From an uncultured virus (IMG/VR IMGVR_UViG_3300035698_022242) (lineage: Duplodnaviria; Heunggongvirae; Uroviricota; Caudoviricetes): a DNA stretch of 20,000 bases. The stretch lies in IMG/VR virus record IMGVR_UViG_3300035698_022242; one strand, 5' to 3'. Positions 3 through 18,776 of this stretch are shown piece by piece. The notes below the pieces were generated by a model. The model searched no databases, was not told where the DNA came from, and saw only the letters and a program-made list of their open reading frames with translations. Both the position numbers and the translations under genes were made by a program. The first letter of the stretch is position 1, and each line of letters opens with the position of its first letter.

Positions 3-890
3 AATTTAATTGTATTGTCTACGTATTCACAACTTCTAGAAGGAAATACACATATCGATAAAGTGTATCCTTTGGCTGACCCAGAAGATTTTTTTTCAAA
101 GTACTTATTTGAAAAACCTGTAAGATTTTATAAAAAACATTTTATATATGATCACCTACTCGACGAGTGTGCTGAGGGTGTAACATCCTTACCCGAGTTT
201 GCATGTGCTGCGTATGGGATAGATTACGACGGCGGTCCTCCCGACTACACCGTTTCTGATGAAGAGCATGCCATTGTAAAAACCTTCCTTGGACAGTATG
301 GCCCAGAAAATAACCGCGTGCCCATTGTTTTGCTCCACTGCACAGGGTCGATTCCATCCGATGGACAAATGAATAAAGTGCACACATCAAAGGATTTAAA
401 CATAGAAACTGCCGCCGAGGTTGTTAAGCATTTTGAGGGTAAAATACGATTTATTCAAATAGGGCTTGAAGGTGAAGCGGTTGTTCCAGGCGCGATTGAT
501 GCACTAGGTATGCCTATGCGTGAAGCTATCGCTATGATCCCTCATACAGATAGTTTCTTATTTATTGAGAGTATTTTTGCACATGCGGCAGCTGCATTCA
601 GTGCTCCCGGAGTTATTCTCTACCAAAATACATCTCCAGACTTTTTCAAATATCCGGGGTATTCTGAAGCTATCAAGGTCTATGATAGCGGTAATTGCCC
701 CCACTGGCCCTGTAACCGCCCGCTGGGTGCCTTGATGGACCTCATGCCTGGGTACCATAACCCCAAGACACGTGAACGTCTGCTATGGCGTTGTGATACG
801 AATCTGTGCCGGAATATCAAATCGTCTGAACTTATCAAAGCACTGGAAGCTACTTTAGCTCCCAAATCTGAGAAAAAAGATGACAAGTAA
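3..890 (+). CDS. GT9-like (ADP-heptose:LPS heptosyltransferase fold) glycosyltransferase, 5'-partial
   Basis: Frame is open to the window edge (AAT TTA ATT GTA TTG...). GT9-like pattern: LLEGNTHIDKV, IVLLHCTG, FIQIG, REAIAMI..DSFLFIESIFAHAAAAFSAPGVILY, plus a C-terminal Cys cluster (CPHWPC...C...C). Confidence 0.75.
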   Translation, partial: NLIVLSTYSQLLEGNTHIDKVYPLADPEDFFSKYLFEKPVRFYKKHFIYDHLLDECAEGVTSLPEFACAAYGIDYDGGPPDYTVSDEEHAIVKTFLGQYGPENNRVPIVLLHCTGSIPSDGQMNKVHTSKDLNIETAAEVVKHFEGKIRFIQIGLEGEAVVPGAIDALGMPMREAIAMIPHTDSFLFIESIFAHAAAAFSAPGVILYQNTSPDFFKYPGYSEAIKVYDSGNCPHWPCNRPLGALMDLMPGYHNPKTRERLLWRCDTNLCRNIKSSELIKALEATLAPKSEKKDDK

Positions 891-1908
891 AAAGATTATC
901 GCATTTCGTGGTGACCGTGCTGCTTGTTGGTTTTACCGGCTACATTCACCCCTGACTTATTTGGCGAAGAATAACCAAGATGCGTATGAGATTACCGTAT
1001 CGGGGGTTCTCAATAAGGCGCATTACGAGGGTTTTGACCTGGCGATCCTTCAACGCCAGTATGCGAAAGATGTATACGATGGTGTTCTGAATCTAAAAAA
1101 GAGTGGAACAAAATTAGTTTATGAGATTGATGATGATTTATTTAATATACCTAAATGGAATCCTGCGTACGAAACATTAGGAAAAGCTAATGTACAACTT
1201 GGTATTCGTGAATTTTTAAAAATAGTTGATGCCATTTTTGTAACTACAGAAAGTTTAAAAAAGATTTATGAACCCTTCTGTGATAATATATATGTTCTTC
1301 CCAATTCTATAAACTATGATGTGATCTATCCTAACGCAAAAAAGAATCAAAAGAAAGATGTAGTGTGCTGGCAAGGATCACTCACTCACGAAAAAGATGT
1401 TAAGATAATTGAGAAAAGCTTGCATAAGCTGGCGCAGTCAGATGAAGCAGTTTTAAAAATGTGGTGCGGGTTTAAGCAAAGAAAAACACTCAAAGAAGAC
1501 CGCACCCCTGTGTTTGATATCCCTGGAGCAGATGTTCTGCAGCTTGTTCAATTTGAATCCTTTTTTCAGATGTTCTCGCAAGTTGGGACGTCCATCGGAC
1601 TTGCCCCCCTTGCTGCAAACACATTCAATAAAAGCAAGTCTAATCTTAAGTTCTTAGAGTACACCGCGTTGGATGCCGTGACCGTTGCATCGTCTGTAGG
1701 CCCGTATAAGGATACTATTGAAGACGGGGTTACCGGGATACTTGTAGAGGACAATTCTACTTGGTACGATGTAATTATTGACCTCATTCGCGATAAGGAA
1801 TTGTATAACAAACTACTTACCAACGCGAAAGAAGTTGTACACACGGAGTATAATGTTGAAAGAAATTACAAAATGTGGCAAGATGCCATTGAACAAATCT
1901 TAGGATAG
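880..1908 (+). CDS. GT4-like (GT-B) glycosyltransferase
   Basis: DLAILQRQ, LVYEIDDDLF, VLPNSI, WQGSLTH and IGLAPLAANTFNKSKSNLKFLEY..VASSVGPY..IEDGVTG, a GT-B pattern common in phage GTs. Overlaps the upstream stop. Confidence 0.85.
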   Translation: MTSKKIIAFRGDRAACWFYRLHSPLTYLAKNNQDAYEITVSGVLNKAHYEGFDLAILQRQYAKDVYDGVLNLKKSGTKLVYEIDDDLFNIPKWNPAYETLGKANVQLGIREFLKIVDAIFVTTESLKKIYEPFCDNIYVLPNSINYDVIYPNAKKNQKKDVVCWQGSLTHEKDVKIIEKSLHKLAQSDEAVLKMWCGFKQRKTLKEDRTPVFDIPGADVLQLVQFESFFQMFSQVGTSIGLAPLAANTFNKSKSNLKFLEYTALDAVTVASSVGPYKDTIEDGVTGILVEDNSTWYDVIIDLIRDKELYNKLLTNAKEVVHTEYNVERNYKMWQDAIEQILG

Positions 1909-1916
1909 GAGATACA

Positions 1917-2342
1917 ATGCATGATACTGAATATTTTGTATTAGTAGTTATGACCGGCATGCCCCCATGGGTATGTGTACTGTCCGCTAGTGATTTGGAT
2001 GATTGGAAAGCGGGAGAATCGCGTACGGTGCTTGCTATAAGTCCTCGGTCATTTCAAATGCAGCAGGGCGCTAACCGCACAGTAGAAATGGTGATTGGTC
2101 CAGTGTATCCGATGCTGACAAAGCAGGCGGAGTTATGGTGCACGCCAACCTCTATTGAAGTAATTGGCGAGGTAATTGGCGAAGTGCTTGGTGATAACGA
2201 TTCTAGAAGTTGTGCGGAAGACCCACAATTGTTTAAGAGCTACATGTCAGCAGTGTCTACGTGGTTCAAAGAAGCCAGTGCTGCGCGTGCAGGGATCACG
2301 TTAGCAAAACCTGGGGACATGCCTAACGTACTTGAGCGGTAA
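1917..2342 (+). CDS. Hypothetical protein
   Basis: 141-aa ORF with SD AGGAG at 1907-1911; fits the operon tiling. Confidence 0.75.
   Translation: MHDTEYFVLVVMTGMPPWVCVLSASDLDDWKAGESRTVLAISPRSFQMQQGANRTVEMVIGPVYPMLTKQAELWCTPTSIEVIGEVIGEVLGDNDSRSCAEDPQLFKSYMSAVSTWFKEASAARAGITLAKPGDMPNVLER
2157..2192 (+). repeat. Imperfect 12-bp tandem repeat x3 (EVIG-EVIG-EVLG)
   Basis: GAAGTAATTGGC GAGGTAATTGGC GAAGTGCTTGGT. Confidence 0.8.
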
Positions 2343-2345
2343 ATC

Positions 2346-2720
2346 ATGGCTAAAACTCCAAAAAAAAATAAATCGTATCTTCTCTGTGTGCTAGATAAAA
2401 AATATCATTTGTATGTGTCTAGTAATGCATTTGTTATCAAAGAACGCATGATTAAAAAGAATGAAGAAACTTGGGTAGGAAAATTCTTTTACGCAAGTTT
2501 AGCAGACTCCCTTCGTGGATATGTTCGTCACAAGATGCGGACAAAGGCAACAGCAAAACAAGTGAACGGAGATGTTAAAGAACTTATTAAGCTCGTGGAT
2601 AATCTTCATAAATATCTGCAGAAATTTGGTAGTGAATTTGAACATGATTTGATGGAACGTTTGAAGGATCCTGTAGAAATGCATTTGCTTAATAATACTC
2701 TGGAGACTACCGATGCGTAG
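2346..2720 (+). CDS. Hypothetical phage protein (weak resemblance to DUF5405-type proteins)
   Basis: 124-aa ORF starting 3 nt after the previous stop. KYHLYVSSNAFVIKE...W...FYASLADSL recalls small phage proteins; the family call is tentative. Confidence 0.7.
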   Translation: MAKTPKKNKSYLLCVLDKKYHLYVSSNAFVIKERMIKKNEETWVGKFFYASLADSLRGYVRHKMRTKATAKQVNGDVKELIKLVDNLHKYLQKFGSEFEHDLMERLKDPVEMHLLNNTLETTDA

Positions 2721-3342
2721 TACGACGCGTATGGACTACACACTCCGAATAAGTAAGGAGTACGTTGTTGGATTGGTGAATTCGTTATTGTTTTCAAATA
2801 CTATCTTATGGGATGGAACAAACCAATTTAATGAACTTCCAATTTTTAGTAGCGACATTACTGAAGATGATAGACGAGAACAACGTGGTGCATTTTTTGT
2901 AGACAATCATTATGGTCGTGTACTTCGATTATTGGCTACCTTAGAAGAAGAAAACCTTCGAGGGAATAGTACATGTCGTGTGTGCTATAGATTGTCTAGC
3001 ATCCAAGAAAAAATGCGTATTGGATCTGCAAACCGTATATACTATCCTTTTACAATTCCTCTTGATTTTTCTGTATCAGATTTACGGTTAGGTGTGCGCA
3101 CTCCCTTTTTATCTTTTTCAGATAATACAGAGAAGGATAATGAAGTCAACTTATCTAAATTAATGGCGCTTATTGGGCATCTCGTTGCTAGTAAATTTAT
3201 TGTTGTAGACGATGAAAATCTCTTTTCTGATCTTCTTACAAGTCAACTGAGTACGCCTCCTATGGCTTCTGATCCACATTTCAACTTAATTTATGGGGTT
3301 GCACCCCCTGGTGATCAGGAGTGTTTAAGCGATGACTATTAA
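2713..3342 (+). CDS. Hypothetical protein
   Basis: 209-aa ORF overlapping both neighbours; no motif recognised. Confidence 0.7.
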   Translation: MRSTTRMDYTLRISKEYVVGLVNSLLFSNTILWDGTNQFNELPIFSSDITEDDRREQRGAFFVDNHYGRVLRLLATLEEENLRGNSTCRVCYRLSSIQEKMRIGSANRIYYPFTIPLDFSVSDLRLGVRTPFLSFSDNTEKDNEVNLSKLMALIGHLVASKFIVVDDENLFSDLLTSQLSTPPMASDPHFNLIYGVAPPGDQECLSDDY

Positions 3343-3901
3343 GGGTATGACATACGTAGGCATAGACCCGAGTTTAACAGGCACAGGGATTTGTGTATTT
3401 AATAGCGGTAGCGGTAACGATGATGAAATGCCTGTGTGTACAATTAAAACAGAAAAGAAAAACTTTGAGAATTCATTACAACGTTATTTATACATTGTAA
3501 ACACTGCGATTGCGTTTATTAAATCTGCTGCTATTTTTCCTCCCACTATTTTTATCGAGGGCTATTCATTTGGTTCTCGCGGTGCTGCAGTTTTTTCTTT
3601 AGCTGAATTTGGTGGACTTCTACGTTATAAAATTGCAAAAAGATTTAATGAGTACTATGAGATTCCACCTACAGTTCTTAAAAAATTTATTACAGGGAAA
3701 GGTAACTCCAATAAGAATGTTATGCTTGAGCAGACGTTTAGAAAATATGGAATAGGATCAGAAATACTTACGGATGATAATCAGGTTGATGCATTCAGCA
3801 TAGCACAGTTTGCTAAAACGATGCGTGAGGGGGCATTACCAAAAATTTTTATTGGTAAATATTCAAAAACAATTTGGAATGATGCGTCGTGCATGGAGTA
3901 G
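3332..3901 (+). CDS. ruvC: Phage-type RuvC-like Holliday junction resolvase
   Basis: RNase H-fold acidic motifs: YVGIDPSLTGTG, IFIEGYSFGS, LAEFGGLLR, IPPTVLKKFITGKGNSNK, DDNQVDA. Confidence 0.9.
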   Translation: MTIKGMTYVGIDPSLTGTGICVFNSGSGNDDEMPVCTIKTEKKNFENSLQRYLYIVNTAIAFIKSAAIFPPTIFIEGYSFGSRGAAVFSLAEFGGLLRYKIAKRFNEYYEIPPTVLKKFITGKGNSNKNVMLEQTFRKYGIGSEILTDDNQVDAFSIAQFAKTMREGALPKIFIGKYSKTIWNDASCME

Positions 3902-4515
3902 TAGACATAATTGTTATTGGTTTTGGTTTAGATAAGATAGAGATAGATTGTCTTAAATCAATTATAAAAAATACAGCACATCCTTATGTTCTTACGTACT
4001 ACGACAATAAAAAAAATAAATACACACTTACAGAACTTTGGAATATGTTTATCGCAAAAAGTTCTTGTGAGTATATTTGTTTATTAAATAATGATACAGA
4101 AGTATCCCCCTATTGGCTAACTAAGTTAATCGAAACATTCTCAATACGTGAACATTGTGGGTTTGTTGGACCATCTACAGATAATTGCCACAGCCCACAA
4201 TCTACTGTGCAAACCTTCGAAGAAGCTGAAAAACATAAGAATGTTGTACGTGTATTAGAGGATCCGATTAGTGGTTTTTGTGTTGCATTTAAAAGGGAAT
4301 TATTTGAAAAGCTTGGTGGATTTGACTGCAGGTATAAACACTACGGACAAGAATCTGATTTAATAAATAGGGGGCAAAGACAAGGGTATGAGGCTTGTTG
4401 GCGGGTAGACGCATTCGTACACCACATTGGTGAGGCAAGTGTTGGACCCGCGAAGATAGACGTAGAAGCAGCACGGAAAGAAGCACGAGCTATTTATTGG
4501 TCATCAAGGAAGTGA
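3889..4515 (+). CDS. GT2 family glycosyltransferase
   Basis: YICLLNNDTEV (DxD-like), VGPST, ISGFC, LGGFD..YGQESD, FVHHIG. Confidence 0.88.
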   Translation: MHGVVDIIVIGFGLDKIEIDCLKSIIKNTAHPYVLTYYDNKKNKYTLTELWNMFIAKSSCEYICLLNNDTEVSPYWLTKLIETFSIREHCGFVGPSTDNCHSPQSTVQTFEEAEKHKNVVRVLEDPISGFCVAFKRELFEKLGGFDCRYKHYGQESDLINRGQRQGYEACWRVDAFVHHIGEASVGPAKIDVEAARKEARAIYWSSRK

Positions 4516-4519
4516 CATC

Positions 4520-5500
4520 ATGCGTGTTCTATTCTTTTGTCCGCATACGCGGATTTCAGGCGGTGTAAAAGTAACATTCACAGTTGCAAACCATTTGGCT
4601 AAATGTGGTGTAGATGTTAATTTAGCTAGCTTAAAGAATTTTGAAAGACCTAATGACTGGTTTATTGATAAAATCCATTTTAATATAATTGATGGTAAGA
4701 GAATACCTTTAGGTGCGCTAAGTACTTATGATGCCTGCGTTACCTTTTGTGACGGTCCCAGTTTATCTGGGGCATCGTGTAAAAAAATATTATATCTGCA
4801 GGGGTTTGCTGGAACTAAAGTAGAAAAACAACGTATTTCTGAAAAATATGATCTTGTTGTAGCTACATCTAAATGGTTGGTAAAACTGGCTAAACAACAT
4901 AATGAAAATGTTATACTTATACCTCCCGGTATTGATAGCATTTTTGCTAGAAAAGAAGCGCCACTGTGCTCCAGATACCAAGCGATAGGGACGATACACC
5001 ACGCATCAAAAGATAAATGTTTTGATAATTTTACAGACATTATTACGCGATATTTTGTAAAGCGTAGAAAACCAGTGCACTGTGTTATTGTAACCGCACA
5101 ACCTTTAGCTAGTGTCCCAGCATTAGATAAGTACATGATTCCGTACTCTATTTACTATAAACCACCTCAAAGGTTATTACCATATATTTATTCCATGTGC
5201 AACGTGTGGGTATCTACGTCAATCAATGAGGGATTTGGACTGCCTCCGCTAGAGGCTATGGCATGTGGTTGTCCTGTAGTTATGTGTAAAAATCGTGGAT
5301 TAGATAAGATTGTACAGCATAAAGCAAATGCATTAGTATACACGGGAAATACCGATGCTGCTGAATATATTAATACATTACTTTATTTCAAACAATGTGT
5401 AAAGAAGTTAAGAAAAGTTGGGTATAATACAGCTAGTAAATTTTTATGGAAAGATTCATTAGACGCATTTTTTTATAATTTACACAAGGTGTGTACATGA
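4520..5500 (+). CDS. GT4 family glycosyltransferase
   Basis: N-terminal ISGGVKV..ANHL, IPPGID, and the EX7E motif STSINEGFGLPPLEAMACGCPVV. Confidence 0.9.
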   Translation: MRVLFFCPHTRISGGVKVTFTVANHLAKCGVDVNLASLKNFERPNDWFIDKIHFNIIDGKRIPLGALSTYDACVTFCDGPSLSGASCKKILYLQGFAGTKVEKQRISEKYDLVVATSKWLVKLAKQHNENVILIPPGIDSIFARKEAPLCSRYQAIGTIHHASKDKCFDNFTDIITRYFVKRRKPVHCVIVTAQPLASVPALDKYMIPYSIYYKPPQRLLPYIYSMCNVWVSTSINEGFGLPPLEAMACGCPVVMCKNRGLDKIVQHKANALVYTGNTDAAEYINTLLYFKQCVKKLRKVGYNTASKFLWKDSLDAFFYNLHKVCT

Positions 5501-6435
5501 CATATCTTTTTATCGAGCCTGGGTTACACATCTGTGGAGGCATACGGCGTATCGTAGAAATTGCCACAAGACTGCGTAATTTAGGGCATATCGTGTATGT
5601 AGCGTCCCCTAAAGGACGTGCGTGTACATGGTTAGACTCTAACTTCATCCCTATAAAATTAGCTAATATAAAAGAATTCAGTAAAAAACATAAAATAGAT
5701 ATCTGTATATTTAATTTAGCAGATCAATATACTGAAGCAAAAGCTGTTACTGCGGCAATTAAGATCTTTTGGGTACTCGCTCCTGAAGCGATGTATAAGA
5801 ACCCGGAAATACCTATTAAAGCATTAAATTGTGGCTTTAATCTATTATCCAATTCTTCATTTACAGTATCCTATATTAAAAAATATGCAAGAAATTATAA
5901 AGATAATATTACTATTATTCCAGGTGGCATAAATAAAACACATTTTAAATATGATTCTATTATTCCAAAAATTTATCATGTAATGTATTATGGATCTTCA
6001 CGCCCATGGAAAGGTGCACAAATTATTGAACGCGCACTAACTCCTTTACAATTGAGGCTCCATAAAATGAACACAGGAAATATGCTACAAACGCAGATGT
6101 ATAAATTGTACGCGTCAGCCACGTGCTATGTATCTGCGGGCCAGATTGAAGGATTTAATTTCCCAATACTTGAAGCTATGGCGTGTGGTTGCCCTGTTGT
6201 TTGTACGTCAGACGGTGGGAGTGCGGATTTTGTGAAAGATGGAATAAATGCAATTGTTGTAAATCGTACTGTGGAAGGGATTTCTAAGGGTGTTCGGAGA
6301 ATACTTGGTGATAAAGATTTGCGTAGAAAACTAAAACAAGGTGGATTAGAAACTGCATCAGCTAAGAAGTATAATTGGGATGTAGTAACTAAGCAATTCA
6401 GCGATTATGCAGAGAACCTTTTATATAGAGAATAA
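5497..6435 (+). CDS. GT4 family glycosyltransferase (paralog of 4520-5500)
   Basis: CGGIRRIVEIA, IPGGIN, RPWKG, EGFNFPILEAMACGCPVV. The ATG at 5497 overlaps the upstream TGA (ATGA); the alternative start is GTG at 5491. Confidence 0.9.
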   Translation: MTYLFIEPGLHICGGIRRIVEIATRLRNLGHIVYVASPKGRACTWLDSNFIPIKLANIKEFSKKHKIDICIFNLADQYTEAKAVTAAIKIFWVLAPEAMYKNPEIPIKALNCGFNLLSNSSFTVSYIKKYARNYKDNITIIPGGINKTHFKYDSIIPKIYHVMYYGSSRPWKGAQIIERALTPLQLRLHKMNTGNMLQTQMYKLYASATCYVSAGQIEGFNFPILEAMACGCPVVCTSDGGSADFVKDGINAIVVNRTVEGISKGVRRILGDKDLRRKLKQGGLETASAKKYNWDVVTKQFSDYAENLLYRE

Positions 6436-7216: not shown

Positions 7217-7512
7217 AAATATTTGTTGATATAGATGGAACTATTTGTCGTACAAAGGATGCAAATTATTCGGAAGCGGTACCCATCCATGCAAGTATAC
7301 AAAAGATAAATAAGCTTTATGACTTAGGGCACGAAATTATTTTTTGGACTGCTCGTGGGTCTGCAAACAAAGAAGAGTCTACTGAAATCCTAAATATAAC
7401 TAACAAGCAGCTACAGGAGTGGGGTTGCAGGTATACACAATTATCAGTGGGTGAAAAGCCCGTGTATGACCTACTGATATGTGATAAATCTGTCAGGATC
7501 GATGAGTTATGA
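7213..7512 (+). CDS. Small cap-less HAD-superfamily phosphatase
   Basis: IFVDIDGTIC (motif I), FWTARG (motif II), KP.YDLLICDKS (motifs III/IV). The TTG at 7213 overlaps the upstream TGA; the ORF track uses GTG at 7201. Confidence 0.85.
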   Translation: MKIFVDIDGTICRTKDANYSEAVPIHASIQKINKLYDLGHEIIFWTARGSANKEESTEILNITNKQLQEWGCRYTQLSVGEKPVYDLLICDKSVRIDEL

Positions 7513-12062: not shown

Positions 12063-12596
12063 ATGAGTAAACTAACTGTAATATTAGCTCATAAAAATAG
12101 ACAACATAATTTAGAGTTTTGCTTAGAATCTATTAATTCATCAAATAAAATACCTCGTGTTATATTGGTTGATTTCGGAAGTACCATACAACCAAGATAT
12201 ACATATCCATGGTTACAAATTATTCATGTAACACATAATACCGATTTTTTTCAAAAAGCACGAGCTTTAAATATTGGAATTAGGCAGACAAAAACTGTTA
12301 ATTTGTGTACTACTGATGTTGATCAGATATTCAATAAAAATTTTTTTAGTGTAGTTGATAATACACTTACTACGCGTAAAAGTGTGTATGTAATGTGTCG
12401 TACGTACGTATTGCGTGAATTGCCTTCAACTATTTCCCCCAAAAACATAATGATAAATTTTGATAAACTTTTAATAGAAGCAAAAAAAATAAGAAAAATA
12501 CCATTTGGTGATGGATGTTGTCATGGGATGCCTACATATGTTGCGCATGCATTAGGAGGGTATGATGAAAGTAGCAGATTATTCGCAAAAACATGA
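12063..12596 (+). pseudogene. C-terminally truncated GT2/GT7-like glycosyltransferase, paralog of 6473-7216
   Basis: Aligns by eye with 6473-7216 (LTVI.A.KNR, VDFG, KARA.NIG, TD.DQIF.KNFFS, GDGCCH, GGY.ES) but stops 7 codons after GGYDES, without the WGxED motif. Confidence 0.7.
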
Positions 12597-12705
12597 CAAA
12601 TGAGTTATACATTGTGACAATAATAAAAATTGCGCAACCAGAACAGGCGTAGTAAAAAAATTGATTAATATAAGTTATAAAATCAGGTTATTATGAAATT
12701 TTTCT

Positions 12706-12710
12706 AGGAG
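12706..12710 (+). promoter_or_regulatory. Shine-Dalgarno site
   Basis: AGGAG 5 nt before the GTG at 12716. Confidence 0.65.
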
Positions 12711-12715
12711 ACTAT

Positions 12716-13429
12716 GTGAATGATGTTATTTCAGTATTAGTTCTTACATATAATAGACGTAATATTGTCTCTATGTGTCTCCCATACATCGCAGAACATT
12801 TAGAAAAATCAAATTCTGAGATATTAATCTGGGATAATGGATCAACTGATGGAACATTAGATTGGATTTTTCAGTTCGCACATTCAAATACAAAAAATAA
12901 AATCAATGTATTTTTTTCTGAAAAAAATTATGGAGTTGAAGCTATTAATTTTTTAGTAGACAAAACTGTAGGAGAATATATCATAAAAGTGGACAGTGAT
13001 ATAATTCCGCCCGTTCAGTATGATACGCGTATGTTAACCGCTTATATAGCATGTGCAAAGGAAAACATTGCTTACTTATCTTGGGATATTCCTTGGGGGC
13101 ACACATCTTTTGCCAAACGTTCTGGTATGAAATTGTATAAAGGTGATCGAGGAACTATTGTGTCTGTTACCCCTAATACACGCGTACTCTGTAATTATGC
13201 TCCAAGCAAATGGATGGTGAATGGTGCGTGCAGATTTTCAGAAAAAGATGTATTTACTAAACTGGGTAGTCATCCACAAGGTAAGCGGTATGGAGTAGAC
13301 ACGTATGTGAGTGCTCAGGCCGAGAAAGCTGGTTATACATGTGGATTCATAGACACCCACGATAAGGCACAGCACATCACACAAATGGATATTATGGAGA
13401 AAATCTATGGCAAAACATCAACCACTTAG
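12716..13429 (+). CDS. GT2 family glycosyltransferase
   Basis: ISVLVLTYNR, EILIWDNGSTDGT, NYG, GEYIIKVDSD. Confidence 0.88.
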   Translation: MNDVISVLVLTYNRRNIVSMCLPYIAEHLEKSNSEILIWDNGSTDGTLDWIFQFAHSNTKNKINVFFSEKNYGVEAINFLVDKTVGEYIIKVDSDIIPPVQYDTRMLTAYIACAKENIAYLSWDIPWGHTSFAKRSGMKLYKGDRGTIVSVTPNTRVLCNYAPSKWMVNGACRFSEKDVFTKLGSHPQGKRYGVDTYVSAQAEKAGYTCGFIDTHDKAQHITQMDIMEKIYGKTSTT

Positions 13430-14213
13430 TATTATTATTCCTGTCGTTAATCAACCTGAAATGACTGTGCGGTGTTTTCAGTCAATACGTGCAAATACAA
13501 AAATGCCGTATGAGATAATTTGGGTTGATAATAATTCAGATCCTGAAAGCTTTGGAATAATTAGAAGACAAGCTACGCGTCCTAGAGTTAATTGTAAATT
13601 GATACGAAATGAATACAATGTTGGTTTTATCAAAGCAATAAACCAAGGTATTGCAGAAGCTAAAGGTGAATACATAATTTTGTTAAACAATGATACAGAG
13701 GTAACGTGGCGATGGGCTACAAAATTAATAAAACCACTTATTAATGATAAAAAGGTTGGAGCGGTAGGCCCCGTCACACAAAGTAAAATTGCCTGGCAAG
13801 AAGCAATGAGTCTTAATGCTCGTTGGGATTTAGGCCTACCCAAGTACACAAAAGCACAAAAAAATAGATATGGTAAAGTACTCGATGAACTATTCAAAGA
13901 CAGATACATTGATGTAGAACGCCTACCTCTGTCTTTTTTCTGTGCTGCTTTTCGGAGAAGTACGTTCACAGAGCTTGGCGGTCTTTGTGAGGAGTTTTCT
14001 ATCGGCTTAGGTGATGATGACGAGTATGGGATGCGTATGCGCGCAAATGGCTTTAAATCGCTTCTCAGCCTGGGTACCTTCGTGTATCACGCACATCGAA
14101 CAACGTTCAATGCTCTGCAATTGGGTGTGGATTCTTTGCGGAGGTACAACATGAAAATTTTGCGAAGAAAAGAAAAAGAATTAAAGGCTGCTGAAAAAAA
14201 GAAGGCGATATAG
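13407..14213 (+). CDS. GT2 family glycosyltransferase
   Basis: LSIIIPVVN, EIIWVDNNS, NVGFIKAINQG, LLNNDTEV, GDDDEY, FVYHAH; SD GGAG at 13396-13399. Confidence 0.9.
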   Translation: MAKHQPLSIIIPVVNQPEMTVRCFQSIRANTKMPYEIIWVDNNSDPESFGIIRRQATRPRVNCKLIRNEYNVGFIKAINQGIAEAKGEYIILLNNDTEVTWRWATKLIKPLINDKKVGAVGPVTQSKIAWQEAMSLNARWDLGLPKYTKAQKNRYGKVLDELFKDRYIDVERLPLSFFCAAFRRSTFTELGGLCEEFSIGLGDDDEYGMRMRANGFKSLLSLGTFVYHAHRTTFNALQLGVDSLRRYNMKILRRKEKELKAAEKKKAI

Positions 14214-14225
14214 TATGATGGCTCT

Positions 14226-15695
14226 ATGAGCGTTCATATACGCGTAGGACCACTTCGTCTGCTCATTACACCTAAGCTGCATCCAAAGGACTTTGATTTT
14301 CTTAAAAAGAAACTCACGTTCACGATGCATAACTACCAGTTTACCACCCAGCACACGATGCATGGGTGGGATGGGCGCAAAACACTTTTGTATAAGAATC
14401 AATCTGCTCCAGCAGGTTGTTTGTATCGGATCATGACCATTCTTAAGAATCAGCTGAAGTACGATGTAGACGTTGAATACGAGCATGATTACCCACCTAC
14501 AGGTGTTGCAGAAGTTATTCCATTTGATTTAATGGATTTTCAATTAAAAGCAGTGCAGCGTGCCATAAAGTACCGTCGTGGAATCATTCATGCTCCTGTG
14601 CGTGCGGGTAAGACTGCAATAATGTCAGCGTTAATTAACAAGATACAACATTTTCCAGTTTGGATAGTTACAAATGGTAAAGATCTTGTAAGACAAACTA
14701 TGAGTGATATTAATGAACATTTAAATATCCAACCTGGATATTTTTCTGAAGGTACGTTTATCCCCGGAGAAGTCGTAGTTACCAGTTATCAAGCACTTGG
14801 GCGTGCTGTATCCGACGCTAAGAAGTGGGAGAAAACTCAGATTCAATCTAATGCACTTGTCGAAAGAAATAAAGCAGTTCTAGCACATTTAAACCGTGCC
14901 CGCGTAGTCCTCTTTGACGAGTGTCATCATGCATTATCCCCGAAAAATCGAGCAATTGCAAACGAAGCGGTATCGTCAGGATACACCATAGGACTGTCAG
15001 GAACGCCTAAACCGGACCATGCGCATCGATTAGAAATGGAGGCTGCCATTGGTTCTGTGATTTTTAAGGTGAGTTATGCAACGTTAATTAAACATAAACG
15101 CATAGCTAGGCCTAAGATAGTCATGTACGAATTACCGTACAAATGGTTCGCAACAGGTCTCCGTGAATACCCAGAAATTTACACTGCAAACATTGTTGCA
15201 AACGTTTATAGAAATGCATTTATTGCTGAAATAGCAAATAAATTAAAGAAAGCAGGAAAAACTGTATATGTTATGATTCGTCATTTAGACCATGGACCCG
15301 TACTTCGTGCGCTAATTCCTGGGAGTGTATTTGTTCATGGGAATATCTCTGGAGAGGATAGGGAAAACTTGTACAAAGGTATTCAGGATAGGCGCATCAA
15401 ATGCATTGTCGCTACTGTTGGTAAAGAAGGATTAAATATTCCTAGTTTGGATGCCGTGATAAATGCGGAAGGGTATCAATCATCTATAGCGACCACTCAA
15501 AAAATGCGTTCAATTACAGCTAGTACTGGTAAAAAGTACGGAATAATTGTTGATTTTATTGATCGTGGAAAATATGTTGGAAAGCATAGCAAAGAAAGAA
15601 AACGAATTTATGAAAAAATAAAAGATGCAAAAATACTCTATCGCACGGTAAAAGCAAACCATTTTGACATGGAAGGTAGCCGATGGTCCCCATAG
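14226..15695 (+). CDS. Superfamily 2 DEAH-type DNA helicase (UvsW/XPB-like)
   Basis: Q-motif DFQLKAV, Walker A APVRAGKT, DECHH, GLSGTP, ATVGKEGLNIPSLD, IVDFID; N-terminal WDGRKTL as in UvsW-like proteins. Confidence 0.9.
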   Translation: MSVHIRVGPLRLLITPKLHPKDFDFLKKKLTFTMHNYQFTTQHTMHGWDGRKTLLYKNQSAPAGCLYRIMTILKNQLKYDVDVEYEHDYPPTGVAEVIPFDLMDFQLKAVQRAIKYRRGIIHAPVRAGKTAIMSALINKIQHFPVWIVTNGKDLVRQTMSDINEHLNIQPGYFSEGTFIPGEVVVTSYQALGRAVSDAKKWEKTQIQSNALVERNKAVLAHLNRARVVLFDECHHALSPKNRAIANEAVSSGYTIGLSGTPKPDHAHRLEMEAAIGSVIFKVSYATLIKHKRIARPKIVMYELPYKWFATGLREYPEIYTANIVANVYRNAFIAEIANKLKKAGKTVYVMIRHLDHGPVLRALIPGSVFVHGNISGEDRENLYKGIQDRRIKCIVATVGKEGLNIPSLDAVINAEGYQSSIATTQKMRSITASTGKKYGIIVDFIDRGKYVGKHSKERKRIYEKIKDAKILYRTVKANHFDMEGSRWSP

Positions 15696-16213
15696 ACGTA
15701 GACGAAATATTGTTGAATGATGCGGTGTGGTCCCAGGATCCTGTTGAACGCCATCTTATGAAGAAGATTATTAACTTGACAAAACAGAATGCTCGGTTAA
15801 AAGAACACATAGAAAGTACGAGTACGTTGTCGAAGTCGCGTCCAATAGATACGTGGACGCCTTTTAACTTCTTTCATTATTTTTGTACGAAGTACCGGGA
15901 GCGTTACAACCGTGAATTCAAGAAAAATGGAAATGTTGCCAGGGTATATTTCAAAATTGATTCATTTAGAACCTCTAATAGTATATCAAAAGAAGATTAC
16001 AAAAAATTCATAGATTCTGCTTTTTTTGGCTATTTTAATAACGTAAATACGCCAACTGTTTCCCATATCTGTAGTGCCAAACTATATAATTATTTGATGG
16101 CTCCAGACACGGACGTTACGTCCGCAGATGACTTGCGGGCACTTGATAAAGTACTTGCTACTGAAAACTCTGACTTTGAGCAGTACATGGACGAGATACC
16201 CTATGATGGATGA
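15683..16213 (+). CDS. Hypothetical protein, possibly replication-associated
   Basis: 176-aa ORF overlapping both the helicase and the loader genes; function inferred from position only. Confidence 0.7.
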   Translation: MVPIDVDEILLNDAVWSQDPVERHLMKKIINLTKQNARLKEHIESTSTLSKSRPIDTWTPFNFFHYFCTKYRERYNREFKKNGNVARVYFKIDSFRTSNSISKEDYKKFIDSAFFGYFNNVNTPTVSHICSAKLYNYLMAPDTDVTSADDLRALDKVLATENSDFEQYMDEIPYDG

Positions 16214-16952
16214 CCGAGACATCGCAGGACTTGAAGCAATAAAAAAGAATTGTGGAGTTTGTGGTGGTAAGGGGTACACAGTAACGGCTGATGGATCCTC
16301 TTATGAAATTCAGGATTGTATCTGTGTAAAAACAATAAGTGAGCATATTAAATACATTGCTGCAAATATACCAACAAAATACCGTTCATGGCATATTAAT
16401 GAATTGCGTAAAGACATTAAAGAGAACTCAAAAAATAAACGTTTCATAAAAGAAATTTTTGATTTTTTAGAACACATACCAGAAAACATAGATGACGGAT
16501 CAGGTTTATGGTTTTTTGCCCCGCCCGGTTTAGCAAAAAGTTCTATGATTACGTATATTTTAAAAGAGTCTATCCGACAAAACTATAAAGTATACTGGGG
16601 TAAGGCACACCAGTATGTGGATCTTAAGTTGAGTGCATCTCGGGGAGATCGTGATGCTGCAAAACTCTTACGACGTATTATCGAGTCTATGGATATTATC
16701 GCAATTGAAGAGGTAGATAAAGTACATCTCTATAGCGATCAACGTACTGCGCCTGCTGCCCAAAATAGGTCAGGCTATTTTAGAGATCATATTTTCTTTG
16801 AATTTCTTTCCGATTTATACGATGCAAATATCTCTATTTTAATGAGTTCTAATATGCCTCGCAATAAAATAGAAGAGGCATATCCATCGCATGTACGTGA
16901 TAGATTGCGTAAATTACATAACGTAGCACTCATTGGAAAGACGGGACGATAA
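16203..16952 (+). CDS. DnaC/IstB-like AAA+ helicase loader with N-terminal Zn-binding motif
   Basis: CGVCGGKG...DCIC, ANIPTKY, GLWFFAPPGLAKS (Walker A variant), IIAIEEVDK (Walker B), MSSN, RDRL. Likely start is ATG 16203 or 16206. Confidence 0.82.
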   Translation: MMDDRDIAGLEAIKKNCGVCGGKGYTVTADGSSYEIQDCICVKTISEHIKYIAANIPTKYRSWHINELRKDIKENSKNKRFIKEIFDFLEHIPENIDDGSGLWFFAPPGLAKSSMITYILKESIRQNYKVYWGKAHQYVDLKLSASRGDRDAAKLLRRIIESMDIIAIEEVDKVHLYSDQRTAPAAQNRSGYFRDHIFFEFLSDLYDANISILMSSNMPRNKIEEAYPSHVRDRLRKLHNVALIGKTGR

Positions 16953-18337
16953 TGCCAGCACTTGCATCTGCTACCGTAGAGCGCAGGGCGCTATCTGCGC
17001 TACTGATTGAGCCACATCACCTTAAGTCGCTTAGTATTCATGCTGATACGTTTTTTTCATCAAAAAATAAAACAGCATTCAAATTAATAAAAAGTTATGT
17101 AGATCGGTATAAAAAGTCACCGACGGTAAAAACACTTAAGATATTTATAGATAAAGAAAAAGATGCAGAAAAAATTGATGAATTATTAGATGGATTAGAT
17201 GTAATAAAAAAATTACCAACTGTTAAAGAAAAAGAAGTAGATTTCTATTTAGAAGAGGCAGATAATTTACGTATTGGTAGAGAAATCGCAAAAACAGCAG
17301 AATTGATCAAAGATAAATTTGAAGGCGGTGAAAAGGATTATATGAATGTTTTGCAAGATGTTATGAAAAAACTTTTAACAATTTCTACAGATAAAGATGG
17401 GGGGGTTACTAGAGGAATGATCCATGAAAATGTTAAGGACCGCTACGATATATTCGCTAAAAAACTCGGTACAGACGACAAAGGAGAGGTCATTCCCTTT
17501 GGGATGTCTGCACTGGACTCCATTGTAGGCGGTATGCGCAAAACATTTGTTACGCTCCTATACTCTAAGACTGGTGGCGGTAAAACGCGTACAGCAATCA
17601 ATATGGCGTATAATGCTGCGATGGCTGGGTTCAGCGTGATCTATTTCTCCTTAGAGATGTCATTTAATCTCCTTTCCTCATGTTTTGATAGCCGCATGGC
17701 TATGGTGGACAGTCGTAACATTATTTTCAGTAAAATGTCTAAGAGTGAGATAAAAAAGTATAAACAAGCTTTACGTAAACAATACGAAGATAAATTAGAT
17801 GTGTATGTAGTAGATATTTCTATTGGGAATACATCATCAAAGATCATGGAAGAAATTGAGCTATATCAGATGACTCAAGGAAAAACTCCTGATCTTGCAA
17901 TTATTGATTATGCCAATATTATGCGACCACAAGCGGTATATTCTGGTCGATCTGAACAATACGATAAATTATTTCAAGAGATTCATAATATTGCTAAATT
18001 TTACAATGTGTCGATTCTTACCGCTACACAGGAAAGTAGAGAAGCATCGAAAGGAGATATTGAAGCTAAACAACATAAAATACAGATAGAACAAGGTGTT
18101 CATAATATTGGATTATCTAATTTTATGGCTCCACACTGTGAAACAGTTATTCGTTTAAAACAGGACTCAGCTGACCGCGCACAAAATAAATTATGGGCAA
18201 TTATTGATAAAAGTCGTTATGGAAATATTGGAGAAGCAATTCCATTAACTGCATTGTGGGATATCACGTATGTGGGTGACCGGTCTAGTAACCTGCGTAT
18301 AAAAAAGAATCCGAAAAACGGTTTATACGATGGTTGA
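16952..18337 (+). CDS. dnaB: DnaB-like replicative helicase
   Basis: IPFGMSALDSIVGG, SKTGGGKT, YFSLEMS, IIDYANIM, LTATQ, IDKSRYG; TAATG overlap with the loader gene. Confidence 0.9.
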   Translation: MPALASATVERRALSALLIEPHHLKSLSIHADTFFSSKNKTAFKLIKSYVDRYKKSPTVKTLKIFIDKEKDAEKIDELLDGLDVIKKLPTVKEKEVDFYLEEADNLRIGREIAKTAELIKDKFEGGEKDYMNVLQDVMKKLLTISTDKDGGVTRGMIHENVKDRYDIFAKKLGTDDKGEVIPFGMSALDSIVGGMRKTFVTLLYSKTGGGKTRTAINMAYNAAMAGFSVIYFSLEMSFNLLSSCFDSRMAMVDSRNIIFSKMSKSEIKKYKQALRKQYEDKLDVYVVDISIGNTSSKIMEEIELYQMTQGKTPDLAIIDYANIMRPQAVYSGRSEQYDKLFQEIHNIAKFYNVSILTATQESREASKGDIEAKQHKIQIEQGVHNIGLSNFMAPHCETVIRLKQDSADRAQNKLWAIIDKSRYGNIGEAIPLTALWDITYVGDRSSNLRIKKNPKNGLYDG

Positions 18338-18776
18338 CATTGTAGACATATATGCGCAAGCAGGTGTTCTCCTGGTTGTTATGGGCGACCGATGGCATGC
18401 TCCATGCCCATTTCATGAGGAAACGAAGCCTTCATTTGTTGTTTACCCGGATGGTGGATACCACTGTTTTGGGTGTGGTGCGCACGGAACACTGCAGGAT
18501 ATGGGAGAATATGCTGGTGTAGACTTTATTATTATTCCCGACTTAGCATACGAGCAAGATCATACAGAGGTCGAAATAAAAAAATACTTGAAAAAAGTTG
18601 AAAAAAGTTTATTATCAGTAGTACAAACATGGTCAAATACACAAAAGATAAAGATGTTCGATAAATTTGATGATATGTATGGTGATTGTGTAGCGAATTC
18701 TAGAGATGTCGGTTCTTCTTTAGTATCGCTCATTTCATATATTCGTAAAGTTATGGGTAAAGAACTGTTCTCTTAA
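18330..18776 (+). CDS. Stand-alone CHC2 zinc-finger (DnaG primase zinc-binding domain) protein
   Basis: CPFHEETKPSFVV...YHCFGCGAHG followed only by about 90 aa of helical sequence; no TOPRIM motifs. Confidence 0.85.
   Translation: MVDIVDIYAQAGVLLVVMGDRWHAPCPFHEETKPSFVVYPDGGYHCFGCGAHGTLQDMGEYAGVDFIIIPDLAYEQDHTEVEIKKYLKKVEKSLLSVVQTWSNTQKIKMFDKFDDMYGDCVANSRDVGSSLVSLISYIRKVMGKELFS

What the first reader, a model, noticed from the sequence alone, without database searches (positions are those of the whole stretch)
3..18776. Probable phage-encoded glycan assembly line (about 11 transferases plus nonulosonate pathway) continuous with the DNA replication and recombination genes
Seen: ten GT9/GT4/GT2/GT7-like genes plus a Maf-like transferase, NeuA, NeuB, HAD, pyruvyl- and methyltransferase. 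They share one strand, overlap start/stop codons, and are interleaved with RuvC and continuous with SF2 helicase, loader, DnaB and a primase ZBD. No flippase, Wzy, Wzz, ABC exporter or initiating undecaprenyl-phosphate transferase is visible, and the GTs show no obvious membrane-spanning segments. Known: phages glucosylate hmC in DNA (T-even phages), some glycosylate virion proteins, and some cyanophages carry LPS-type sugar clusters. Inference: this is a virus-encoded, cytoplasmic system building a complex nonulosonate-capped, pyruvylated or methylated glycan on virion proteins, host envelope precursors or viral DNA.
Basis: partly seen in the sequence, partly recalled or inferred. Interest (0 to 1): 0.85.

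Follow-up and report, generated by a model that had tools for sequence, protein, structure and literature searches.

The report
Phage sugar-chain island with sialic-like cassette
A large uncultured bacteriophage carries about twenty genes for building a decorated sugar chain, including a swappable gene set for making a sialic-acid-like sugar, but what the chain is attached to is still unknown.

Summary
Window 3-14213 encodes 11 glycosyltransferase-type genes (8 pass Pfam cut-offs, 3 rest on PHROG, fold or Atlas evidence, 1 is truncated), plus NeuB, a CMP-sugar synthetase, a mini-HAD phosphatase, a pyruvyltransferase and a methyltransferase. All lie on one strand and run into RuvC and replication genes. 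The contig is a phage: large terminase, PolA, RecA, SbcCD and RNR, with a complete 184-kb relative that has terminal repeats. Eight relatives keep a glycan island at the same place with a conserved core (GT9-like, GT4, a GT2 pair beside the helicase) and a widely varying middle. The nonulosonate cassette (7201-12061) is private to this phage within its lineage. It recurs in other jumbo tailed-phage contigs (NeuB beside the Maf-like gene in 20 of 34 long loci) but in no cultured phage. No flippase, polymerase/ligase, initiating transferase or ThyA-type hydroxymethylase was found in the contig or the complete relative. The acceptor is not shown. My odds are phage-made (virion) protein 0.4, host envelope (LOS-type) 0.3, DNA 0.06. 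This scan noted the same kind of island before on other DNA (e1-6012774). It is a new variant of a known kind.

The parts
3..890 (+). GT9-like GT-B glycosyltransferase. It is the first gene of the island and is cut by the window edge; the full gene is 348 aa and starts 156 bases upstream. Conserved core gene.
   Evidence: Pfam Glyco_transf_9 at 20.4 bits, below the 22-bit cut-off. Atlas nearest clusters are 93-100% Uroviricota, with TM 0.70-0.77 to bacterial GT9 clusters. 36-39% identity to L011 and to the complete relative G003.
880..1908 (+). GT4 glycosyltransferase (GT4a), phage family phrog_7162. Conserved core gene.
   Evidence: Pfam Glycos_transf_1 at 36.2 bits. phrog_7162 at 9.1e-46. 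42-44% identity in L011 and G003. Homologues in Streptomyces, Arthrobacter and E. coli phi92-type phages.
1917..3342 (+). Three small genes of unknown function (141, 124 and 209 aa). The last two are conserved in L011 and G003.
   Evidence: No Pfam or NCBIfam family. blastp at 26-33% identity. The Atlas gave no lead for 2713-3342.
3332..3901 (+). RuvC-like Holliday junction resolvase, embedded in the island.
   Evidence: Pfam RuvC at 34.6 bits and phrog_159 at 1.5e-31. Shared with L011 only.
3889..6435 (+). GT2/7C-like gene (3889-4515) and two GT4 genes (4520-5500, 5491-6435). This block is shared with relative L011.
   Evidence: Pfam scores of 31.0, 60.5 and 64.6 bits. 34-50% identity to L011.
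6473..7216 (+). Full-length GT2 with a Glyco_transf_7C motif. It is the left bracket of the nonulosonate cassette.
   Evidence: Pfam at 53.7 and 36.9 bits. 40-42% identity to L009 and G003. 46% identity to the truncated copy at 12063-12596.
7201..7512 (+). Mini-HAD phosphatase (103 aa), the predicted nonulosonate-9-phosphate phosphatase.
   Evidence: phrog_1238 at 5.6e-23. TIGR01689 capsule biosynthesis phosphatase at 9.8e-8. All four HAD motifs are invariant in 7 of 7 virus-borne homologues. It lies beside NeuB in L063 and L064.
7509..8165 (+). Short MptE/Maf/sialyltransferase-fold protein (218 aa), the predicted CMP-nonulosonate transferase that caps the glycan.
8158..8793 (+). CMP-nonulosonate synthetase (NeuA/PseF-like cytidylyltransferase).
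   Evidence: Pfam CTP_transf_3 at 24.4 bits, above the 22.6-bit cut-off. The NCBIfam PseF profile is matched over its whole length at 4.3e-8, far below the equivalog cut-off.
8778..9632 (+). Short, SAF-less NeuB-family nonulosonate (9-phosphate) synthase. It is 284 aa as called elsewhere; the longest ORF starts at 8736.
   Evidence: Pfam NeuB at 191.1 bits. Below the NeuB_NnaB and PseI equivalog cut-offs. PDB best match 6NCS at 9.5e-27. The identical 284-aa protein P0001 and a large clade of about 285-aa relatives.
9636..10565 (+). Polysaccharide pyruvyltransferase.
   Evidence: Pfam PS_pyruv_trans at 54.5 bits, profile positions 1-279 of 280.
10696..11334 (+). Probable SAM-dependent methyltransferase.
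   Evidence: Pfam Methyltransf_23 at 21 bits, below the 27-bit cut-off. Its 32%-identical homologue in L070 passes at 28.1 bits.
11315..12061 (+). GT-A type glycosyltransferase (phrog_22332), part of the cassette.
   Evidence: PHROG at 1e-20. A distant paralogue of the GT2_268 family. 34% identity in L070, directly before the Maf-like gene.
12063..12596 (+). Truncated GT2 paralogue (177 aa) that lacks the 7C motif region. It is probably a remnant at the right junction of the cassette and is followed by 119 bases of non-coding AT-rich DNA.
   Evidence: 46% identity over 170 aa to 6473-7216, ending where the 7C region starts. Start-to-start spacing is 5590 bases.
12716..14213 (+). Conserved pair of GT2 genes (237 and 268 aa) directly before the helicase. 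This is the lineage-wide core.
14226..18776 (+). Replication module: UvsW-like SF2 helicase, a 176-aa unknown, DnaC-like loader, DnaB and the primase zinc-binding domain.
   Evidence: Pfam and PHROG matches. All are conserved in the 8 relatives.

Best explanation
The window holds the glycan island of a large uncultured tailed phage. The genome is about 185 kb by CheckV's estimate and is of the PolA/RecA type, with a PaBG/Rctr197k-like terminase.

The lineage keeps the island between a metallopeptidase gene and the UvsW-like helicase. The core is conserved: GT9-like, GT4 and two unknown genes at the left, and a GT2 pair at the right. The middle is exchanged between relatives, much as in an O-antigen locus.

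In this phage the middle holds a mobile nonulosonate cassette. The inferred chemistry is as follows:
1. A short NeuB condenses PEP with a 6-phospho-hexose from the host. Man-6-P, giving a Kdn-type sugar, is the most economical guess.
2. The mini-HAD removes the 9-phosphate.
3. The NeuA-like enzyme makes the CMP-sugar.
4. The short Maf/sialyltransferase-fold enzyme puts it on the end of an oligosaccharide built by the soluble GT4, GT2 and GT9-like enzymes from host (and RmlA-like) NDP-sugars.
5. Pyruvyl and methyl groups finish the glycan.

Everything happens in the cytoplasm without a lipid carrier of the phage's own. I think the most likely acceptor is a phage-made protein of the virion surface, as in mycobacteriophages and giant viruses.

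Shown: the gene content, the viral origin, the island architecture and the recurrence of the cassette. Inferred: the 9-phosphate route, the sugar identity, the capping role, and above all the acceptor.

The confidence given (0.4) is for the whole statement, acceptor included. For the part without the acceptor I would say about 0.85.
For: - **Viral origin.** TerL, metallopeptidase, UDG-PolA, RecA, SbcCD and RNR on the 39-kb contig. The complete relative G003 is 183,765 bp with terminal repeats and has TerL at 50% identity.
- **Island architecture.** The GT2 pair is in 7 or 8 of 8 same-lineage loci. The middles differ: GT10, sulfotransferases, dehydratases, DegT, FkbM/TylF methyltransferases, radical SAM and WbqC.
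- **Cassette is accessory.** NeuB is in 1 of 4 held lineage records. The cassette is bracketed by a full and a truncated GT2/7C paralogue.
- **Cassette is a viral module.**
  - There are 152 Maf-like relatives in IMG/VR, of which 80 were kept.
  - Of the 34 loci of at least 14 kb, 20 have NeuB, 19 the HAD, 17 NeuA and 8 the pyruvyltransferase within 8 kb of the Maf-like gene.
  - L070 has the same seven genes.
  - 4 of 5 such contigs have a tail-sheath match.
- **9-phosphate route.** The NeuB-HAD pairing is conserved and the HAD motifs are invariant. PMC6200933 (passages read) says that the organisms with a phosphatase step use phosphorylated substrates.
- **Capping enzyme.** The fold class is Maf/CstII/GT29.
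- **Phage-made acceptor.**
  - The core GT families are phage-specific (phrog_7162) and occur in phages of Gram-positive and Gram-negative hosts.
  - One homologue lies beside terminase and portal in phage Zuko.
  - No initiating transferase, flippase or polymerase/ligase was found in 4 of 4 records, with positive controls.
- **Precedents.** Clade-specific Megavirinae clusters of 6-33 genes (PMC10117803, abstract). Pyruvylated and methylated Mimivirus fibril glycans (PMC8456856, passages).
Against: - No acceptor is identified, and no virion gene lies in the island.
- The island is co-oriented and contiguous with replication genes rather than late genes.
- The ppGalNAc-T lead over K4CP, WrtF and heparosan synthase is only about 1.2-1.5 Z, which is nearly a tie.
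- GT9, CstII-like enzymes, NeuB/NeuA and pyruvyltransferases are classic cell-envelope enzymes.
- Only 21% of this phage's genome is seen. The absence of export or DNA-modification genes therefore rests mainly on a relative with only 40% helicase identity.
- The sugar identity is a guess. NeuB falls below every equivalog cut-off.
- Promoter and terminator scans gave no more sites than shuffles, so nothing is known about timing.
Confidence: 0.4

Rival explanations
1. Host-envelope remodelling of the LOS type. The soluble enzymes extend the host's lipid A-core (or another host lipid-linked glycan) at the inner face of the membrane, and the host's own MsbA or flippase exports it. The infected cell surface changes, which blocks superinfection or stops progeny being wasted on debris. 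This is the usual reading of cyanophage 'LPS' clusters.
For: - The GT9-like fold, CstII-like fold, NeuB/NeuA and GT2/7C and GT4 genes resemble a lipooligosaccharide sialylation locus. That resemblance is my recollection of the Campylobacter LOS locus, not tested here.
- This route needs no Wzx, Wzy or initiating transferase, so searches do not count against it.
- The island sits with early or middle replication genes.
- PMC7824862 section 3.4.10 (read) interprets the polymorphic cyanophage clusters in this way.
- The variable middle fits an arms race at the cell surface.
Against: - The conserved core GTs belong to phage-specific clades. The GT4a family occurs in phages of Gram-positive hosts that have no LPS.
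- No host is known.
- No such function has been demonstrated for any lytic phage cluster in the papers I read.
Confidence: 0.3
2. DNA hypermodification. The transferases build an oligosaccharide on a modified base of the phage genome, as in T-even phages, the 5hmC-glycan clusters of Pyle et al., or YerA41.
For: - The island abuts the helicase, DnaB, primase and PolA.
- Pyle et al. (bioRxiv 10.1101/2023.12.21.572611, abstract and section 9 read) often find phage GTs beside replication genes.
- YerA41 carries an adduct of about 1 kDa, with oligosaccharide character, on thymidine (PMC9023294, passages read).
- PolA has an N-terminal UDG-like domain.
Against: - The ThyA family is absent from 4 of 4 lineage records; the control rang in 10 of 14 genomes.
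- No Tet_JBP hit appeared in Pfam scans of the contig or of 222 ORFs of the complete relative. The six-frame Tet_JBP search had no positive control and is uninformative.
- The relative has ThyX, dCMP deaminase and thymidylate kinase, which is the ordinary dTMP route.
- phi92-type phages, which carry a homologous GT cassette, are exceptionally sensitive to restriction (PMC8594841, passages read).
- Known DNA glycans are mono- to trisaccharides, according to the abstract of Pyle et al.
Confidence: 0.06
3. There is no single assembly line. The island is a collection of two or more independent small systems with different products or acceptors: the conserved core on one hand and the exchangeable cassettes on the other. 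Some genes may be decaying.
For: - The core and the middle have different evolutionary behaviour.
- One GT is truncated.
- RuvC and three unknown genes are interspersed.
- The nonulosonate module travels with other GT sets in a different island, between dUTPase and PhoH, in other phages.
Against: - Tight packing on one strand, with 15 of 25 junctions overlapping.
- The cassette brings a transferase, but an acceptor glycan must come from somewhere. In every context seen it lies among further GTs.
Confidence: 0.15

Closest known systems
Megavirinae (Mimivirus and relatives) fibril glycosylation gene clusters
   Same: Virus-encoded nucleotide-sugar pathways plus soluble glycosyltransferases in clusters of 6-33 genes. 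Their content is specific to each clade (PMC10117803, abstract). The products carry pyruvate ketals and O-methyl groups (PMC8456856, passages).
   Different: Those are giant viruses of amoebae, and this is a tailed phage. No nonulosonate pathway was mentioned in what I read of those papers. Attachment to the virion is shown there and not here.
Cyanophage 'LPS/capsule' clusters (P-SSM2 type, 15 genes)
   Same: A polymorphic phage cluster of epimerases/dehydratases, nucleotidyltransferases and several GT families, with no experimental function (PMC7824862, section 3.4.10 read).
   Different: A different phage lineage: here PolA/RecA with a PaBG-like TerL. No NeuB homologue was found in any cultured phage record, cyanophages included. 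The proposed host-surface role is itself untested.
Phage DNA sugar-hypermodification clusters (Pyle et al.) and T-even glucosylation
   Same: Phage GT-A and GT-B enzymes related to LPS and teichoic acid enzymes, often near replication genes.
   Different: Those depend on a ThyA-type hydroxymethylase or on 5mYOX/TET with a methyltransferase. None was found here. Their products are mono- to trisaccharides.
Bacteroides thetaiotaomicron / Prymnesium Kdn pathway (Kdn-9-P synthase, phosphatase, CMP-Kdn synthetase)
   Same: The same three-enzyme logic: a NeuB-family synthase plus a HAD phosphatase plus a cytidylyltransferase, with no NeuC/PseB-type upstream enzymes (PMC6200933, passages read).
   Different: Substrate specificity was not tested. 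The HAD here is a 103-aa capless form. NeuB is a SAF-less clade of about 285 aa that falls below all equivalog cut-offs.
Maf flagellin nonulosonate glycosyltransferases and CstII/GT42 sialyltransferases
   Different: Only the central domain is present (218 aa against 632 aa in 5MU5). There are no flagellar genes. The profile found no sequence-level match to any solved structure.
Mycobacteriophage virion O-glycosylation (Freeman et al. 2023)
   Same: Phage-encoded GTs that glycosylate capsid and tail-tube subunits. I saw this only as described in PMC12619734 and did not read the original.
   Different: Those phages have two or so GTs. Here there are 11, plus a nonulosonate pathway and decorating enzymes.

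Membership tests
NeuB family (PF03102), N-acetylneuraminate or pseudaminate synthase | NeuB TIM-barrel domain above Pfam's gathering score | tested here: met
   191.1 bits against a cut-off of 22.1, residues 44-276. The six-frame search confirms it.
NeuB family (PF03102), N-acetylneuraminate or pseudaminate synthase | Equivalog-level score that would assign the substrate (NeuB_NnaB or PseI) | tested here: not met
   157.2 bits against 399.65, and 127.8 bits against 340.25. The substrate is undefined.
NeuB family (PF03102), N-acetylneuraminate or pseudaminate synthase | C-terminal SAF/antifreeze-like domain, as in the 349-aa enzymes | tested here: not met
   The protein is 284-298 aa and the NeuB domain ends at 276. 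The nearest solved chain, 6NCS, is 290 aa. That the SAF domain is typical of the long enzymes is my recollection.
Maf (motility-associated factor) flagellin glycosyltransferases | Central MptE-like catalytic domain | tested here: met
Maf (motility-associated factor) flagellin glycosyltransferases | Flanking N- and C-terminal domains and a flagellar gene context | tested here: not met
   218 aa against 632 aa for 5MU5. No flagellar genes in the contig. It works like a sialyltransferase-type enzyme and is not a Maf protein in the strict sense.
HAD-superfamily phosphatase | Four catalytic motifs: DxDxT, a Thr/Ser, a Lys and an acidic motif IV | tested here: met
   D10, D12, T14, T50, K86 and D95-K96 are invariant in 7 of 7 homologues. 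Pfam scores are just below the cut-offs. phrog_1238 matches at 5.6e-23.
Wzx/Wzy- or ABC-dependent polysaccharide locus | Initiating phosphoglycosyl transferase, flippase, and polymerase or ligase | tested here: not met
   Bac_transf, Glycos_transf_4, Wzy_C and Polysacc_synt: each in 0 of 4 records (window contig, complete relative, two partial relatives), with controls ringing in 10-13 of 14 genomes. ABC2_membrane was not searched in six frames; no such hit appeared in the Pfam scans.
Phage DNA sugar-hypermodification cluster | An enzyme that makes a hydroxymethyl-pyrimidine acceptor (ThyA homologue, or TET/JBP with a methyltransferase) | tested here: not met
   PF00303 in 0 of 4 records, control 10 of 14. 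No Tet_JBP in the Pfam scans. The six-frame Tet_JBP search lacked a positive control. Only 21% of this phage's own genome is seen.
Virus-encoded virion glycosylation system (Megavirinae or mycobacteriophage type) | Virus-encoded sugar pathway plus soluble GTs in a lineage-variable cluster | tested here: met
Virus-encoded virion glycosylation system (Megavirinae or mycobacteriophage type) | The glycan is attached to virion proteins | not testable with these tools
   This needs particles. No cultured relative exists.
Polysaccharide pyruvyl transferase (PF04230) | Full-length match above the gathering score | tested here: met
   54.5 bits against 25.3, profile positions 1-279 of 280.

The most novel reading that the evidence does not exclude
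The island hypermodifies the phage's DNA with a nonulosonate-capped, pyruvylated oligosaccharide. The attachment chemistry would not use ThyA- or TET-made hydroxymethyl-pyrimidines. That would explain why the conserved GT2 pair is welded to the helicase and replication module in every relative.

Short of that, and much more likely (about 0.4): this would be the first tailed phage whose virions carry a sialic-acid-like cap, made by a cassette that jumbo phages exchange among themselves.
Probability: 0.06. Interest if true: 0.95.

Novelty: new variant of a known kind. Interest (0 to 1): 0.6.

Why it matters
Sialic-acid-like sugars are known as surface masks and recognition tags of cells. A phage that makes its own would be new for tailed phages, and so would a gene cassette for this that moves between jumbo phages.

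**If the target is the virion.** Particles in water would carry acidic, decorated glycans. These could affect adsorption, aggregation, grazing, and recognition by lectins or defences.

**If the target is the host surface.** It would be a concrete example of a lytic phage re-dressing its host.

**Enzymes to test.** The data define three compact enzyme families: a NeuB of about 285 aa without a SAF domain, a HAD of about 100 aa, and a Maf/sialyltransferase-fold enzyme of about 218 aa. They are abundant in metagenomes, unnamed, and easy to test in vitro.

**Limits.** The value is limited by the lack of a cultured phage, and because the same kind of island has been noted before (cyanophages, giant viruses, and this scan's e1-6012774).

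Tried and rejected
- **Whole genome.** None is held for the window.
- **Megablast of the window** against 50,697 phage records gave no match.
- **Single-protein scans with the helicase** found no relative in genome contigs (41 pattern hits, 0 confirmed) or in viral contigs. Only the three-sequence alignment worked.
- **Promoter and terminator scans** gave no more sites than shuffles: 61 against 69.9±9.1, and 10 against 11.1±3.9. Nothing can be said about transcription units.
- **Sequence matches to solved structures.**
  - The Maf-like profile's best hit against PDB sequences was E 0.16, to ankyrin repeats.
  - The single Maf-like protein found nothing.
  - The GT9-like protein found nothing at E up to 1.
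- **Atlas search** for the conserved unknown 2713-3342 gave no lead: scores 0.82 or lower and TM 0.36 or lower.
- **The one metagenome scan** gave only a 3.6-kb overlapping contig, whose genes match the ends of G003.
- **Cluster-member names** for the nearest NeuB and Maf-like proteins were uninformative.
- **Six-frame searches without controls.** The Tet_JBP and NCLDV-capsid searches had no positive control. Terminase_6C gave one weak hit in 5 records.
- **'Moraphage' lineage (PMC12619734).** Considered and rejected as the same group, because those phages use PolB.
- **ORFs left out of scans.**
  - Only 99 of the 161 called ORFs, from 4 of 7 loci, went into. L075, L083 and L087 were left out.
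  - Only ORFs of 95 aa or more (222 of 290) of G003 were scanned.

Full report
**1. What is in the window**

Twenty-six plus-strand ORFs tile positions 3-19999. With the longest ORFs, 15 of the 25 junctions overlap. Pfam, PHROGs and NCBIfam give the following order:

- 3-890: a GT9-like gene
- 880-1908: a GT4
- 1917-3342: three small unknown genes
- 3332-3901: RuvC
- 3889-4515: a GT2/7C-like gene
- 4520-6435: two GT4 genes
- 6473-7216: a GT2/7C gene
- 7201-7512: a 103-aa HAD
- 7509-8165: a 218-aa MptE/Maf-like protein
- 8158-8793: a CTP_transf_3 cytidylyltransferase
- 8736/8778-9632: NeuB
- 9636-10565: a pyruvyltransferase
- 10696-11334: a weak methyltransferase match
- 11315-12061: a PHROG glycosyltransferase
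- 12063-14213: three GT2 genes
- 14226-18776: an SF2/UvsW-like helicase, a 176-aa unknown, a DnaC-like loader, DnaB and a primase zinc-binding domain

Eight of the eleven transferase genes pass Pfam's gathering scores. The three that do not rest on other evidence:

- **GT9-like.** Atlas clusters with TM 0.70-0.77 to bacterial GT9.
- **Maf-like.** Fold evidence, described in section 6.
- **11315-12061.** PHROG match at 1e-20.

No 19-residue window exceeds a Kyte-Doolittle mean of 1.79, and the highest values lie in Rossmann-core strands. The first gene begins 156 bases before the window. The GT2 at 12063-12596 is a truncated copy.

**2. It is a phage**

The window is positions 6401-26400 of a 39,042-base IMG/VR record, G001, which is linear and 21% complete by CheckV.

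- **Left flank, opposite strand.** A large terminase (phrog_17415, 2.8e-62), a WYL/Lar-like protein, an RmlA-like nucleotidyltransferase and a phage metallopeptidase.
- **Right flank.** A UDG-fused PolA, RecA, SbcD, SbcC and a ribonucleotide reductase.

There are no tRNAs and no cellular housekeeping genes. The terminase is at best 31% identical to those of Rctr197k, PaBG and other large myoviruses. No GenBank phage matches at the DNA level. A relative, G003, is complete: 183,765 bases with terminal repeats and CheckV 100%. Its terminase is 50% identical.

**3. The island is a lineage feature with a swappable middle**

A helicase alignment retrieved 44 viral loci. Eight have 40-57% helicase identity.

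- GT2_268 is present directly before the helicase in 8 of 8 of these loci, and GT2_237 in 7 of 8. The eighth locus has only 454 bases upstream.
- Neither gene is present in the 36 more distant loci.
- The GT9-like gene, GT4a and two of the unknown genes are shared with L011 and G003.

Between these edges the content differs from phage to phage. It includes a GT10 fucosyltransferase, two sulfotransferases, GDP-mannose and other 4,6-dehydratases, DegT aminotransferases, a UDP-GlcNAc 2-epimerase, FkbM and TylF methyltransferases, a radical-SAM enzyme, WbqC and an acetyltransferase.

L011 has the same left half as the window but passes straight from the two GT4 genes to the GT2 pair.

**4. The nonulosonate cassette is accessory and mobile**

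- The HAD, Maf-like, NeuA, NeuB, pyruvyltransferase and methyltransferase genes have no homologue in the eight relatives.
- NeuB is found in 1 of 4 held lineage records and is absent from the complete one.
- The cassette is bracketed by a full GT2/7C gene and a copy that is 46% identical. The copy stops exactly where the 7C region should begin and is followed by 119 non-coding bases. I read this as the scar of a module exchange; that is an inference.

**5. The same module occurs in other viruses**

The short Maf-like family has 152 confirmed relatives in IMG/VR, of which 80 were kept.

| Gene found within 8 kb of the Maf-like gene | Of all 80 loci | Of the 34 loci of at least 14 kb |
|---|---|---|
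| NeuB | 24 | 20 |
| HAD | 23 | 19 |
| NeuA | 19 | 17 |
| Pyruvyltransferase | 10 | 8 |

NeuA usually starts about 12 bases after the Maf-like gene.

- L070, from a 380-kb record, has the same seven genes.
- In that second group the module lies in another variable island, between dUTPase and PhoH.
- 4 of 5 such records have a tail-sheath match.
- An unrelated 68-kb contig, L063, has NeuB, the HAD, a cytidylyltransferase, a GT29 sialyltransferase and many tailoring genes.
- Among 50,697 GenBank phage records only 2 have a NeuB homologue, both uncultured, and none has the Maf-like gene.

**6. What the cassette enzymes probably do**

- **NeuB.** It belongs to a large clade of proteins of about 285 aa without a SAF domain. 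It scores below the equivalog cut-offs for both Neu5Ac and pseudaminate synthases.
- **HAD.**
  - The coupling of NeuB to a HAD of about 100 aa is conserved.
  - All four catalytic motifs of the HAD are invariant in 7 of 7 sequences.
  - I therefore infer a nonulosonate-9-phosphate route. No NeuC-, PseB- or LegB-type gene is present in the cassette, so a Kdn-type sugar from Man-6-P is the most economical guess. It is only a guess.
- **Maf-like protein.**
  - It gave a confident model, with pLDDT 91.1.
  - It lacks Maf's flanking domains. I read it as a transferase that uses a CMP-nonulosonate to cap a glycan.

**7. The acceptor**

*DNA.* ThyA-type enzymes are absent from 4 of 4 lineage records; the control rang in 10 of 14 genomes. 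Pfam scans of the contig and of 222 ORFs of G003 show no Tet_JBP. They do show ThyX, dCMP deaminase and thymidylate kinase. phi92-type phages carry a four-GT cassette near PolA that includes a GT4a homologue. They are exceptionally sensitive to restriction (PMC8594841, passages read). YerA41 shows that a DNA adduct of about 1 kDa is possible (PMC9023294). I keep DNA at 0.06.

*Lipid-linked export.* Bac_transf, Glycos_transf_4, Wzy_C and Polysacc_synt are each absent from 4 of 4 records, with controls ringing in 10-13 of 14 genomes. This rules out a self-contained Wzx/Wzy locus. It does not rule out extension of the host's lipid A-core, which needs none of these; that last point is my recollection of LOS biosynthesis.

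*Phage-made protein.*
- The conserved core GTs fall in phage-specific clades.
- They occur in phages of Gram-positive and Gram-negative hosts.
- One homologue lies beside terminase and portal in phage Zuko.
- Giant viruses set the precedent of clade-specific clusters and of pyruvylated, methylated virion glycans (PMC10117803, abstract; PMC8456856, passages).

My odds are virion or other phage-made protein 0.4, host envelope 0.3, independent modules 0.15 and DNA 0.06.

**8. Novelty**

Virus-encoded glycan clusters are known. Examples are the cyanophage clusters (PMC7824862, section 3.4.10 read), giant viruses, DNA glycosylation clusters (Pyle et al., abstract and section 9 read) and mycobacteriophage virion glycosylation, which I saw only as cited in PMC12619734.

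This scan had already noted an island with a 'swappable middle' on other DNA (e1-6012774). I reached the same picture independently here.

What is new:
- this PolA-type lineage;
- the recognition of a compact nonulosonate module that moves between the islands of jumbo phages and has no cultured carrier.

Four literature searches listed no paper on nonulosonate synthesis by tailed phages. Two limits apply: only the listings and the named passages were seen, and subscription journals are not covered.

I class this as a new variant of a known kind, with interest 0.6.

Noticed in passing
L061:13363-14673 (complete relative G003): A 436-aa adenylosuccinate-synthetase-like gene (PurZ-like?) lies between SbcD and SbcC in the replication module. 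It might mean a 2-aminoadenine genome in that relative. It is not present at the same site in the window's contig.
   Followed up: no
L013:1262-3415; L001:13714-17445 and 17448-19550: An intein with a LAGLIDADG domain interrupts a GDP-mannose 4,6-dehydratase inside the glycan island of one relative. Inteins also sit in PolA and RecA of another relative. An intein in a sugar-nucleotide enzyme is unusual.
   Followed up: no
L006:412-2949 (just right of the window); also L001 and G003: DNA polymerase A carries an N-terminal uracil-DNA-glycosylase-like domain in all lineage members examined.
   Followed up: no
window 18791-19999, continuing into L006:1-369: A long acidic, low-complexity ORF lies between the primase zinc-binding domain and PolA. 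Its length varies in relatives (591, 440 and 399 aa), and G003 has only a 178-aa ORF at that position. No family was found.
   Followed up: partly
L005:3732-4559 (minus strand, 1.8 kb left of the window): An RmlA-like glucose-1-phosphate nucleotidyltransferase (172 bits against the rmlA profile, below its cut-off). It probably feeds NDP-sugar to the island. G003 has RmlC, RmlD and a UDP-glucose-dehydrogenase-like gene scattered elsewhere in its genome.
   Followed up: partly
L005:3110-3718: A WYL domain fused to a Lar-like zinc ribbon, beside the terminase gene. A WYL protein is also present in G003.
   Followed up: no
G003: L056:16003-17241, L059:14539-15678, L061:7611-8750; L055:2925-3404: The complete relative carries three TnpB (OrfB_IS605) copies, one of them inserted between PolA and RecA. 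It also has a Tad6-type Thoeris inhibitor.
   Followed up: no
L063:5592-6215 and L081:9292-10443: Eukaryote-type GT29 sialyltransferase domains lie in viral contigs next to NeuB/HAD/CMP-synthetase modules.
   Followed up: no
window 12001-13000: GC falls to 28.5%, against about 38% elsewhere, around the truncated GT2 and the 119-base gap at the cassette's right junction.
   Followed up: partly
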